64,000 bases of DNA from Eledone cirrhosa. Its lineage: Eukaryota. This document shows, piece after piece, positions 57,811-61,519 of this stretch. Position 1 is the stretch's first letter; every line of letters starts with the position of its first letter. The position numbers and the translations under genes are program-made. The stretch spans positions 95,604,001 through 95,668,000 of the forward strand of contig OZ024744.1 in NCBI GenBank assembly GCA_964016885.1, read 5' to 3'. The notes beneath the pieces were generated by a model. The model saw only the letters and a program-made list of their open reading frames with translations. It made no database searches and was not told the DNA's origin.

Positions 57811-59815
57811 TCGGACCTTGGCATAGTTAGCAAGAATATTTTAGATAGAATAATACCACAAATTAAGGAATTATCTTATTTAAAATTATGGAAAGGAACT
57901 AACGAAGTTATCGAATGGTTTAAAGACATTAAATATAATTATAATAATAAGTTTATTCAATTGGATATTGCTAATTATTATTCATCCATCACTCCTAATC
58001 TACTTAATAAAGCACTGACATATGCTTTTAAACATACAGGCTTAACTAGTAATGAAATGCACATTATCCTAACGGCACGGAAAACATTAATTAAATTTAA
58101 CAACCAACTCTAGACTAGAGCAAATAGAGATAATAATTTCGATGTCACTATGGGGTCATCGGATTCCGCCCAGGTAACGGATCTTGTGGGGCTTTTTATA
58201 AATAATACTCTACACAGAAAAATACCTTAAACCTTAACACATGTTTTCATTATCCATTTCACAAATTAAACGAGAACTTAAACTACGTTAATTCTAACAC
58301 CAATCACTCGAGATCCGTTAAAAATACTATAGTAAATTCTGTACAGCAACGCATTTCTAGAATTTCAGCTAATAAGAATATTTTTGATGATAAAGCACAA
58401 TATTACAACGAAGCATTAGGTAGAGCTGGATATAGTAATAAAATTAAATATATTGATAATAATAATATAACAAATAACCATAATTTTAACAACTATAATA
58501 GAAAACCTTACAATAATTCGAAAAACAAAAAAAGAAATAGAACTAGGAATATATTATGGTTCGCTCCTCCTTTCTCATTAAATATTAAAACTCCTATAGC
58601 TAAACTATTCTTTAAAGCTCTTGACAAATGCTTCCCTAGAACACATAGACATTACCCAATATTTAATAGACATACTATAAAATTAACTTATTCAACCACC
58701 AGTAATTTAGCGCAGAATATTAATAGAATTAATAATAGAAACTTAAAACCTAACCAGAATACCATTAACAACACCAGCAATATCCAATTTAATAACACGG
58801 CTCCTAGTAACTTGAATTTTGATAAATGTAACTGTAGAAACAAATCTAACTGTCCGTTAAATAACAATTGTTTAGCTAAAAATATAGTATATAATTGTAA
58901 TGTAAAAACTAATTTAAATTCATTTAATTATGTAGGTTCTACTTCCACAGACTTTAAATCCCGCTTTAATAACCATAAATTCTCTTTTACGAATAAAAAT
59001 AAAAAATCTTCAACTTCTCTATCTAGCTTACTATGGGACCTAAAATTAAAGAACATTAACTATTCTTTACTTTGGAATATTATTTCCAAAGCTCCTCCAT
59101 TTAACGCCTCTTCGGAAAATTGTGCTCTTTGTATAGAGGAAATATTCTTTATATTAAAGAGCAAAATTTCTGTGAATTTAAGGAACAATCTTTTTAGTTG
59201 CTGCAAACATAGATTAAATTCAACGTTTAAATATAAATTTAAAATGTAATATATAACTCATCTTATTAAACCTATCGATAAATCATTAGATTCCTTCATA
59301 CGACTGCCAAAAACTCTCTTAAATGAAGAAAAAAAAATATTCATAAAAATAAAAAAATAAAATTTTTTCCTTAAAATTTTTCCTTCAAAATTCTTCCAGA
59401 TAAACATACTGAAAGTTTTTTTTTTAAATGGGTATAAAAAATTAAGATAAACATACTGAAAGTTTCTAAAAAAAGGTTTATTATTAATTCCTCTGATGGA
59501 TATATAAAAAATTATAATTCATATTTTATACTGTGTTTTTTTCTATATATTCTTATATATATTTTAAAAATGACATTGCTTAAAAATATAATTCCTTTTA
59601 AAATTATATAATTATATCTTTTTTTTAAATTGTAATTCTTTAAAAATATAATTCCTTTTAAAATTATATAATTATATCTTTTTTAAAAATTGTAATTCCT
59701 TTTAAAATTATAACTCATATTTTATTTTATATTATGTATTTTCTTCTTTATATATATATATATAATAATGAAATGATAGGAGGCTGGATTTGTGTAAATC
59801 CTTGAAAGGTTTATT

Positions 59816-59873
59816 ATACTATGATCATTTCAATGACCGGGTTCCGTATGAATCCGGTGATATCATCAGGTAT
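59816..59873 (-). ncRNA. Type I hammerhead ribozyme motif (left inverted arm)
   Basis: Reverse complement of 60652-60709. Confidence 0.82.
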
Positions 59874-60651
59874 TCGAAATATAATACGTGAATGTAATAG
59901 GTAAAATCCATGGGGCTGAAAATCGAGACCCGAGGGCGACCGCTATTCTGTTCCTTCAACTTCAGCCGGTCGCCCTGGAGTGACGTGGCTAAATTTTATA
60001 GTATGCTACTACTATTGTTAAACTGTTGAACTTTAAATTTTCTAACCTCTTTAATATTGAATATTGATTATTAAATGTTTTTAACCTCATCCTAGAAGTC
60101 TAAACACTGTAAAACACTGACTCCCAATATATCCATCTCCGCTAAGATGCGGGTCCCTGTGAAAATTTTCTCGCGCCACTCCTGGCTTGACTGTGGTCTG
60201 ACATTAATATCGACCTTTCTTCCTCTTCCTTTCTATCTTCCTTCTTGTAGCCATCAACCCTTACTTTTCTACTTCTCTCTTCCCTTCCTTCTCTCCTCTC
60301 CTCCTCCCTGCAGACTTATCTTCCTTCCCCCTCTTGCTTGCCTATATCTGACCAGTAGTAGTTACCTTCCTCTTTTAGCTGACATTAACCCTGACTTCTC
60401 TTCTTCTTTCTTCCCCCTTCTTCTCCTTCCTTTCTTTCTTTCTTTTACCTTGTGTCATGGGATCGACGTTAACCTATGCTCCCATCTCTTTCTGTTTTCG
60501 TTCATCTGACCGGTAGTAGCATACTATAAAATTTAGCCACGTCACTCCAGGGCGACCGGCTGAAGTTGAAGGAACAGAATAGCGGTCACCCTCGGGTCTC
60601 GATTTTCAGCCCCATGGATTTTACCTATTACATTCACGTATTATATTTCGA

Positions 60652-60709
60652 ATACCTGATGATATCACCGGATTCATACGGAACCCGGTCATTGAAATGA
60701 TCATAGTAT
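60652..60709 (+). ncRNA. Type I hammerhead ribozyme motif (right inverted arm)
   Basis: atac-CTGATGA-stem II (accgg..ccggt)-GAAA-tgatca-TA-gtat, then AATAAA. Confidence 0.82.
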
Positions 60710-61519
60710 AATAAACCTTTCAAGGATTTACACAAATCCAGCCTCCTGTCATTTCATTATAATATTTAACTCCGTAATAGCACCACCAACTACAAAAACA
60801 AAGACGGTTGAACTGCTTTACGTTGAGTACTCTCTATATTATTGCATTACGATTGACCATACGGAATAGACCAGCTCTATACAGTGGTGAACCTCAAACC
60901 TGAATATATATATATATATGTATATGTGTATATGTATGTGTGTATATGTATGTATATATATATATGTATGTGTGTATATGTGCGTACGTATGCATGTATG
61001 TATGTCTGTGTATATATATATATTGAAATGTATAATTTGAATACATTCTATGAATGAACTTATAAAAAAGGTATCTTACGGTTTATGCTTTAGATATATT
61101 CTTATGAAAAACTTTAAACATTCAGACATTATAGTAAACAAACTTATATTTTAACAGACACAACTGTATAACAGGTGGATTTATAAAATATATAAAATTT
61201 ATAAAATTATAACTTACTATAAAATAATATAAGGTTCTCTTATAATCTTAAATTTTTTTATCATCTTAACTTTTATAGCATATAATCCTTAGAGGTATCT
61301 AAATTACAAATAAATCAATAAATATTCCATCACGCTGTATTGCTATTACTAAGAGATTTTTCTTCGGTAAAATCTCTGAACATTCCTATATTTTAAACAT
61401 ATATTTTGCTATTTCTTATAAGTTTTATTGTTAATCGAAAAATTTAATAGTTAATTGTTGATTGATGATTAATAATAAATTTATGTAAGGTTATGTAATA
61501 ATAACATATATTTTGATAG

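What the first reader, a model, noticed from the sequence alone, without database searches (positions are those of the whole stretch)
59765..60760. ~1 kb non-coding element with two outward-facing hammerheads in 248-bp inverted arms
Arms at 59765-60012 and 60513-60760 are nearly identical, each with an intact HHR and AATAAA, around a pyrimidine-rich spacer with no credible ORF. The element sits in the (TA)n tract of another PLE's 3' region and is absent from that PLE's inverted twin. Transcription of either strand would give a panhandle RNA ending in a ribozyme. A diverged solo relative lies at ~3350-3490. It could be a PLE inverted-pLTR insertion or a retrozyme-like non-autonomous family.
Basis: partly seen in the sequence, partly recalled or inferred. 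Interest (0 to 1): 0.72.

Follow-up and report, generated by a model that had tools for sequence, protein, structure and literature searches.

The report
Two-armed hammerhead retroelement insertion
The 1-kb mirror-image element is one cut-short copy of a young, protein-free jumping element with a 2.8-kb unit and over a thousand copies in this genome; it carries a predicted self-cutting RNA motif and is likely pasted in by Penelope-type enzymes copying from both sides of a DNA break, a known kind of insertion.

Summary
The arms are real, but the 1-kb panhandle is not a replicating unit. It is 59757-60903: the last 890 bp of a non-coding 2.8-kb tandem unit, fused head-to-head to an inverted 256-bp piece of the same unit. 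Its junction occurs once in the genome. The family has about 1,500 exact matches to its end. Of 92 position-ordered copies, 69 are two-armed, 61 pairing the same two fixed ends (140 nt apart) in (TA)n, and no junction recurs. An autonomous Neptune/Nematis-type Penelope family here shows the same two ends, target, U·U hammerhead variant and a shared tail word. Five insertions fuse an arm to another family's end, two of them to autonomous elements. The hammerhead core is intact but lacks the G10.1-C11.1 pair, Rfam does not hit it, and 65 of 91 direct arms read through its cut site. The 'solo relative' is an arm of a 1.6-kb sister family. Verdict: a non-autonomous Penelope-mobilised element with an unusually large unit. 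Paired opposite-strand hammerheads and inverted pLTRs are in print. This scan found the same layout before, for 310-591-nt families on other DNA of this genome. A circular template is possible, not shown.

The parts
59757..60012 (-). Inverted arm: unit positions 2413-2668, outer end at fixed end B, running into (TA)n
59810..59869 (-). Left hammerhead-like motif (core starts at 59869 on the minus strand)
60013..60013 (.). Head-to-head junction, one base that fits neither arm; the 30-mer across it is unique in the genome
60014..60903 (+). Direct arm: unit positions 1914-2804 (5'-truncated), 98.9% identical to the full unit
60014..60512 (+).
60545..60595 (+). GC-rich segment read by eye as a hairpin (not folded here); 19 of 160 arm truncations cluster at its 5' base, unit 2440-2459, a likely RT stall
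   Evidence: hairpin and stall inferred
60640..60715 (+). Right type I hammerhead-like motif: core at 60656, U·U at 10.1/11.1, palindromic stem III 60697-60704, predicted cut after 60705; activity untested
60763..60768 (+). Fixed end B (AT-rich; where inverted arms stop)
60769..60903 (+). Tail between ends B and A, about 140 nt, holding the word TTGAGTAC shared with two other families' tails; end A at 60903 followed by (TA)n
58206..59249 (+). Host PLE: 5'-truncated ORF with linker Zn-finger-like motif and GIY-YIG endonuclease motif (read by eye; Pfam gave no hit)
55582..57500 (-). Inverted twin arm of the host PLE, lacking the insertion
3279..3491 (+). Short arm of the sister family (unit about 1.6 kb, non-coding), stopping near end B

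Best explanation
This is one 5'-truncated, two-armed copy of a non-coding, hammerhead-bearing element with a 2.8-kb unit, likely inserted by the borrowed reverse transcriptase-endonuclease of a Neptune/Nematis-type Penelope-like element. Shown: the unit, its lack of an ORF, the copy number, the two fixed ends, the (TA)n flanks, the unique junctions, arms that share rare variants, and an autonomous family with the same end layout. Inferred: the enzyme nicks both strands of a (TA)n tract; each 3' end primes cDNA on the element's RNA, one at start A and the other at start B 140 nt upstream; both cDNAs stop early and are joined at their stop points by a few bases of microhomology or filler, so that two hammerheads face outward whenever both cDNAs pass the motif. 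Usually both primers read the same RNA variant; now and then one reads, or jumps to, another family's RNA. The template is uncut or re-ligated at the hammerhead (a circle is about 40% likely; a long uncut transcript with template jumping is the alternative). This copy is a dead-end product: it has less than one unit.
For: Arm search: 1,577 candidates, all 40 scored 99-100%; 1,507 exact matches to end A, 1,900 to end B, 3,040 to the hammerhead (reversed controls 0). Unit 2,804 bp from a tandem copy; tandem periods 2.36-2.82 kb. 22 of 23 best-match loci two-armed; of 92 position-ordered loci 61 B+A, 2 A+A, 1 A+B, 5 inverted with an unplaced end, 22 without a BLAST-detectable second arm, 1 unmatched; 35 of 92 with a hammerhead pattern on both strands; no repeated junction; 45 of 69 junctions overlap by 1-17 nt. 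Several 'single' copies have own-family B stubs of a few bases. Arms of one insertion share 151 non-majority bases against 27.7 (max 71) in 1,000 permutations, 70 pairs. Autonomous family L196: 753-aa frame, 3,666-bp period, U·U hammerhead, ends A and B, (TA)n flanks. TTGAGTAC shared by three families' tails, 0 of 5,000 shuffles. Of 38 single-arm loci, 5 join directly to another family's TA-flanked end (L062, L067, L153, L156, L235), two of them ORF-bearing PLEs. 65 of 91 direct arms pass the cut site; L241 runs 1.75 units. PMC11167929 (first two of four parts read): a PLE protein nicks and extends both strands, starts at two internal sites that define the tail, and uses uncut RNA.
Against: No partner sharing extended sequence was found: the unit and the autonomous family align only over 24 nt (E 0.009), and the whole-tail alignment is not above shuffles (324 of 2,000). 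The hybrids could be deletions joining two neighbouring insertions. Arm concordance is inflated by subfamilies being active at different times, and gene conversion could also make arms alike. BLAST overlaps at junctions include chance extension. Some junctions are nearly symmetrical (e.g. L068, L229), as a fold-back of one cDNA would give. Private variants shared by both arms are skewed to T>C on the hammerhead strand (15 of 27), which an antisense edited template would also give. The promoter is unknown. The clade of the partner rests on motifs read by eye, not on a tree; Pfam gave no RT or GIY-YIG hit.
Confidence: 0.85

Rival explanations
1. The 1-kb panhandle with two outward hammerheads is itself a replicating unit.
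For: 35 of 92 copies have hammerheads on both strands; arms are 99% identical.
Against: Junction unique; no repeated junction in 69 two-armed loci; median length 564 bp, only 9 between 0.8 and 1.4 kb; hammerhead core paired away in the panhandle fold.
Confidence: 0.03
2. Same family, but the inverted arm is made by self-priming or fold-back, possibly on an antisense RNA, as proposed for rotifer Penelope elements, rather than by two target-primed cDNAs.
For: PMC3846280 (passages) proposes this for head-to-head junctions; several junctions are near-symmetrical; T>C skew of shared private variants, 15 of 32 against 2 A>G over all loci, binomial p 0.005.
Against: Many junctions are very asymmetric, with the inverted arm far longer than the direct one (L101, L049); both outer ends are fixed and differ; some second arms come from other families; the skew did not repeat in a fresh set (1 of 4 shared variants) and RT U·G errors in parent copies would also give it (recalled).
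Confidence: 0.1
3. A truncated 3' UTR of an autonomous PLE whose ORF was not sampled.
For: L156 has a PLE ORF directly 5' of unit position 1747; PLE 3' UTRs here exceed 1 kb.
Against: Head-to-tail copies close the 2.8-kb unit with no ORF; the L156 join is seen in 1 of 30 copies of that PLE.
Confidence: 0.04
4. A non-autonomous DNA transposon (MITE) or an assembly artefact.
For: Terminal inverted repeats around a non-coding core.
Against: Variable inner truncation with fixed outer ends, unequal ends A and B, tandem read-through; contigs of independent runs show many other arm-to-arm joints.
Confidence: 0.01

Closest known systems
Insertion architecture of EN+ Penelope-like elements: inverted pLTR, partial tandem, optional tail (PMC8557442, introduction and passages; PMC3846280, passages; PMC11167929, first two of four parts)
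   Same: Inverted 5'-truncated copy at the 5' end, partial tandems, tail at one end only, microsatellite target, hammerhead in the repeat, two RT start sites, read-through of the hammerhead.
   Different: No ORF; tail about 140 nt rather than 30-40; the inverted arm is the rule (69 of 92); some insertions have a second arm from another family.
Paired minimal hammerheads on opposite strands in Schistosoma mansoni (PMC4209133, first two of four parts)
   Same: That paper reports dual min-HHRs about 100-700 bp apart on opposite strands, tied to truncated PLEs; long helix II, short helix I, palindromic helix III.
   Different: Here the hammerheads are 790 bp apart, the parent is non-coding, and the G10.1-C11.1 pair that the paper calls highly conserved is U·U.
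Animal non-LTR retrozymes (PMC7229834, passages; bioRxiv 10.64898/2026.07.22.740005, three of five parts)
   Same: Non-coding, one type I hammerhead per head-to-tail unit, proposed PLE mobilisation.
   Different: Unit 2.4-2.8 kb against 170-400 nt circles and 51-972 bp consensus lengths (that survey capped the period at 1,000); at most 1.75 units seen, no long arrays; atypical hammerhead; no cleavage or circle shown.
Non-autonomous Chlamys PLEs such as MRC1 and Chlamys-N4 (PMC8557442, PMC9977147; passages)
   Same: Non-coding PLE derivatives with pLTRs, head-to-tail copies, microsatellite targets and heavy 5' truncation.
   Different: Those resemble their partner at the 3' end and mostly lack hammerheads; here only short motifs are shared with the candidate partners.

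Membership tests
Non-autonomous EN+ PLE derivative | No RT/EN ORF in the full unit | tested here: met
Non-autonomous EN+ PLE derivative | pLTR architecture: inverted truncated copy, partial tandems, tail at one end | tested here: met
Non-autonomous EN+ PLE derivative | Microsatellite target, 5' truncation, fixed 3' ends | tested here: met
Non-autonomous EN+ PLE derivative | 3'-end homology to an autonomous partner | tested here: inconclusive
   shared 8-mer and hammerhead type and hybrids, but tail alignment not significant; only one autonomous family examined in full
Non-autonomous EN+ PLE derivative | Mobilisation in trans by a PLE protein | not testable with these tools
   needs an in vitro or cell assay
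Animal non-LTR retrozyme | Non-coding head-to-tail unit with one type I hammerhead each | tested here: met
   (9 of 92 with the tandem junction motif)
Animal non-LTR retrozyme | Small unit (170-400 nt; up to about 1 kb) | tested here: not met
   2.36-2.82 kb
Animal non-LTR retrozyme | Canonical type I hammerhead with G10.1-C11.1 | tested here: not met
   U·U at that pair; no Rfam hit
Animal non-LTR retrozyme | Self-cleavage and circular RNA in vivo | not testable with these tools
Type I hammerhead ribozyme (PLE variant) | Core C3-A9, G12-A14, A15.1-U16.1, H17; stems I-III possible; palindromic stem III | tested here: met
   read from the sequence; near-invariant across family and sister family whose flanks differ
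Type I hammerhead ribozyme (PLE variant) | Covariation supporting the stems | not tested
   variants were listed but too few for a pair count; none was run
Autonomous PLE | Single ORF with RT and GIY-YIG EN | tested here: not met
   met only by the separate family at L196 (motifs by eye)
MITE | Uniform length and identical termini across copies | tested here: not met

The most novel reading that the evidence does not exclude
A giant retrozyme: a 2.4-2.8-kb non-coding RNA circle with an active U·U hammerhead, three times the size of any reported animal retrozyme unit, copied from two start sites into both strands of a (TA)n break by a dimeric Neptune-type enzyme whose two halves prime independently and can hold different RNAs. 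The hybrid insertions would be direct genomic evidence for that two-primer mechanism, and TTGAGTAC would be the recognition signal shared across families.
Probability: 0.3. Interest if true: 0.65.

Novelty: new variant of a known kind. Interest (0 to 1): 0.4.

Why it matters
How Penelope-like elements make their inverted ends, and what moves animal retrozymes, are both described as open in the papers read. This family offers over a thousand young insertions with two precisely mapped ends, a candidate partner with an open frame, and hybrid insertions that would separate a two-primer model from fold-back. It also shows that hammerhead-bearing non-coding units can reach 2.8 kb, beyond the size cap of a recent survey, and that a U·U hammerhead variant missed by Rfam is common here. 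The locus itself is an ordinary dead-end copy, and this scan has already noted the same layout for smaller families.

Tried and rejected
Rfam: no hit on the hammerhead in the whole window, in 191 bases around it, or in the unit. RNA runs: no RNA holder listed; the contigs laid cannot show expression. ORF relic: a short 'NISNHNSN' match to the partner's linker scored E 3.4, rejected. Partner hunt among 20 hammerhead-picked loci found more non-coding subfamilies and no ORF-bearing form other than the hybrids L153 and L156. Whole-tail alignment to the autonomous family: not significant. Pile-up of truncations at the predicted cut: 8 direct arms in 2606-2630 against 4 and 2 in the flanking 25-nt bins, not convincing. 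A-to-G editing marks, a lead from earlier notes: not found (2 of 27); a T>C skew appeared instead and a fresh set of 20 loci was uninformative (1 of 4). An snRNA-type promoter in the duplicated conserved block: no match to sequence upstream of 10 U6/U2 loci. The active-fold energy failed (mis-set brackets) and is not used. The first classification was disturbed by TA-rich hits and replaced; one search's output was cut. The protein atlas gave no result for the partner protein. Earlier scan notes by sequence: none for this family. Literature searches listed no paper on this family or on cross-family hybrid arms; subscription papers and Repbase were not searchable, and bioRxiv supplements were not seen.

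Full report
Observation. The insertion lies in a (TA)n tract of the right arm of a larger host palindrome (55582-57500 against 58479-61541), and the twin arm is continuous at that site. The spacer has no credible ORF.

The family. The arm gives 1,577 candidates in the 3-Gb genome, all 40 scored being 99-100% identical. Exact patterns give 1,507 matches at the 60903 end (end A), 1,900 at the 60763-60768 site (end B; this pattern also matches read-through copies) and 3,040 for the hammerhead of this and its sister family. A head-to-tail copy defines a 2,804-bp unit; other tandem periods are 2.36-2.82 kb. The unit has internal duplications, no frame resembling a PLE protein and no Rfam match. The window's element is unit 1914-2804 fused head-to-head with inverted unit 2413-2668, one extra base between. 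The 30-mer across that junction occurs once.

Architecture across copies. Of 23 best-match loci, 22 are two-armed. For a less biased count I took the 92 loci covering the first 100 end-A matches along contig C1, so one end is A by construction. 61 pair A with an inverted arm ending at B, 2 are A+A, 1 is A+B with read-through, 5 have an inverted arm with an unplaced end, 22 show no second arm by BLAST and 1 did not match. 35 of 92 carry a hammerhead pattern on both strands like the window's copy; no junction pair recurs; 45 of 69 junctions overlap by 1-17 nt; median length is 564 bp. Several of the 22 have own-family B stubs of a few bases. 19 of 160 arm truncations fall at unit 2440-2459, at the base of a GC-rich segment. 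So the panhandle is a by-product of how the family inserts.

The hammerhead. The core, stems I-III and a palindromic stem III can be drawn, with the cut predicted after 60705. The 10.1/11.1 pair is U·U, whereas PMC4209133 (first two of four parts read) calls G10.1-C11.1 highly conserved in PLE hammerheads. Rfam does not hit it and its free fold is not above shuffles. It is nevertheless almost invariant across the family and the sister family, whose upstream flanks differ, and an autonomous family has the same U·U type. 65 of 91 direct arms extend past the cut site and L241 runs 1.75 units, so the template is uncut or re-ligated there. In the fold of the whole panhandle the core is paired to the other arm.

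The relative at 3279-3491 is an arm of a sister family: 1,606 candidates, the same two ends and two-armed layout, a unit of about 1.6 kb inferred from L144 with no frame over 111 aa, sharing with this family the hammerhead and tail, the first 55 bases and a duplicated internal block. That block does not match U6 or U2 upstream sequence.

The likely enzyme. A young autonomous family (1,559 candidates) has a 753-aa frame with RT, linker Zn-finger-like and GIY-YIG motifs read by eye, a 3,666-bp period, (TA)n flanks and two ends after its hammerhead. PMC8557442 (introduction, passages) assigns such a linker motif to Neptune and Nematis; no tree was built and Pfam gave no hit. Its tail, this family's tail and a third family's tail in the window share TTGAGTAC, 0 of 5,000 base shuffles reaching 8 letters, but the pairwise tail alignment is not significant (324 of 2,000). 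Among 38 single-arm loci (22 ordered, 7 long, 9 hammerhead-picked), 12 had a foreign left segment worth testing, and 5 join without a TA tract to another family's TA-flanked end: L062 (6 of 7 other copies end in TA), L067 (23 of 24), L153 (20 of 23; ORF-bearing PLE), L156 (21 of 24; the autonomous family above) and L235 (6 of 9). The L156 join is 1 of 30 copies of that PLE. Deletion between neighbouring insertions is not excluded.

One template or two. In 70 two-armed loci the arms share 151 non-majority bases, against 27.7 (max 71) when permuted; rare variants are shared by all three copies in L200 and L208. Both arms therefore usually come from one RNA variant, with time-structured subfamilies and gene conversion as caveats. 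Sharing across tandem copies, and the need to regenerate more than one unit despite truncation, favour a monomer read repeatedly (circle or jump); this is inference. Led by earlier notes of A-to-G marks in smaller families, I tested the spectrum: shared private variants were T>C in 15 of 27 and A>G in 2, against 17 and 8 of 131 unshared. A fresh set of 20 loci gave 4 shared variants, 1 T>C. This stays unexplained.

Mechanism. Shown: unit, ends, target, junctions, shared variants, a like-built autonomous family. Inferred: both strands of a (TA)n tract are nicked, each primes on the RNA at A or B, both cDNAs truncate and are joined. PMC11167929 (first two of four parts read) shows in vitro that a PLE protein nicks and extends both strands, starts at two internal sites bounding the tail, is predicted to be a dimer and uses uncut RNA. 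PMC3846280 (passages) offers the rival, self-priming on an antisense template.

Comparison and novelty. Inverted pLTRs, partial tandems and tails are standard for PLEs (PMC8557442), dual hammerheads 100-700 bp apart on opposite strands were reported in 2014 (PMC4209133), non-autonomous PLEs are known in Chlamydomonas (PMC8557442, PMC9977147, passages), and animal retrozymes are proposed PLE dependants (PMC7229834, passages; bioRxiv 10.64898/2026.07.22.740005, three of five parts). It works like a PLE-mobilised retrozyme but fails two retrozyme tests, unit size and canonical hammerhead, so it is filed as a non-autonomous PLE-type element. Earlier notes of this scan describe the same layout for 310-591-nt families; none matched this family by sequence. 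New here are the 2.8-kb unit, the U·U hammerhead, the shared tail word and the cross-family hybrids, for which six literature searches listed no paper. Interest 0.4.

Noticed in passing
window 55376-55567: A second two-armed insertion of another family between (TA)n tracts, with TTGAGTAC in its tail; its end is the foreign arm of hybrid L067.
   Followed up: partly
window 54099-54170 (+) and 48171-48215 (-): Two canonical G-C hammerheads of other elements, weak Rfam hits to HH9 and Hammerhead_1.
   Followed up: no
window 55582-61541: The host PLE is itself a two-armed insertion with a linker Zn-finger-like motif, so the finding is a two-armed element nested in another.
   Followed up: partly
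window 62880-63389 (-): GIY-YIG fragment of a different PLE type; relatives in L027, L087, L100.
   Followed up: no
L196:1487-3802: Young autonomous PLE with an open 753-aa frame, U·U hammerhead just upstream and a microsatellite-rich 3' UTR of over 1 kb.
   Followed up: partly
unit 1235-1330 and 1747-1843 (L031, minus strand); sister L144: A 60-120-nt block duplicated in both this family and its sister and conserved at 75-88%; candidate promoter or RNA signal, no match to U6/U2 upstream DNA.
   Followed up: partly
family-wide: T>C skew on the hammerhead strand among private variants, opposite to the A>G marks noted for smaller families; not repeated in a small fresh set.
   Followed up: partly
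window 60517-60545 (-) against L254 upstream of U6: Weak 29-nt resemblance (76%, E 0.3) between the antisense strand of the arm and U6 upstream DNA; probably chance.
   Followed up: no
L222: A short rearranged tandem (unit 2423-2804 plus 1-85 repeated), possibly the birth of a 470-bp retrozyme-sized unit from the large one.
   Followed up: no
window 18847-18904 and 49773-49828 (-); 11921-12188: Weak tRNA-like hits beside a 244-268-bp repeat present three times, probably a SINE.
   Followed up: no
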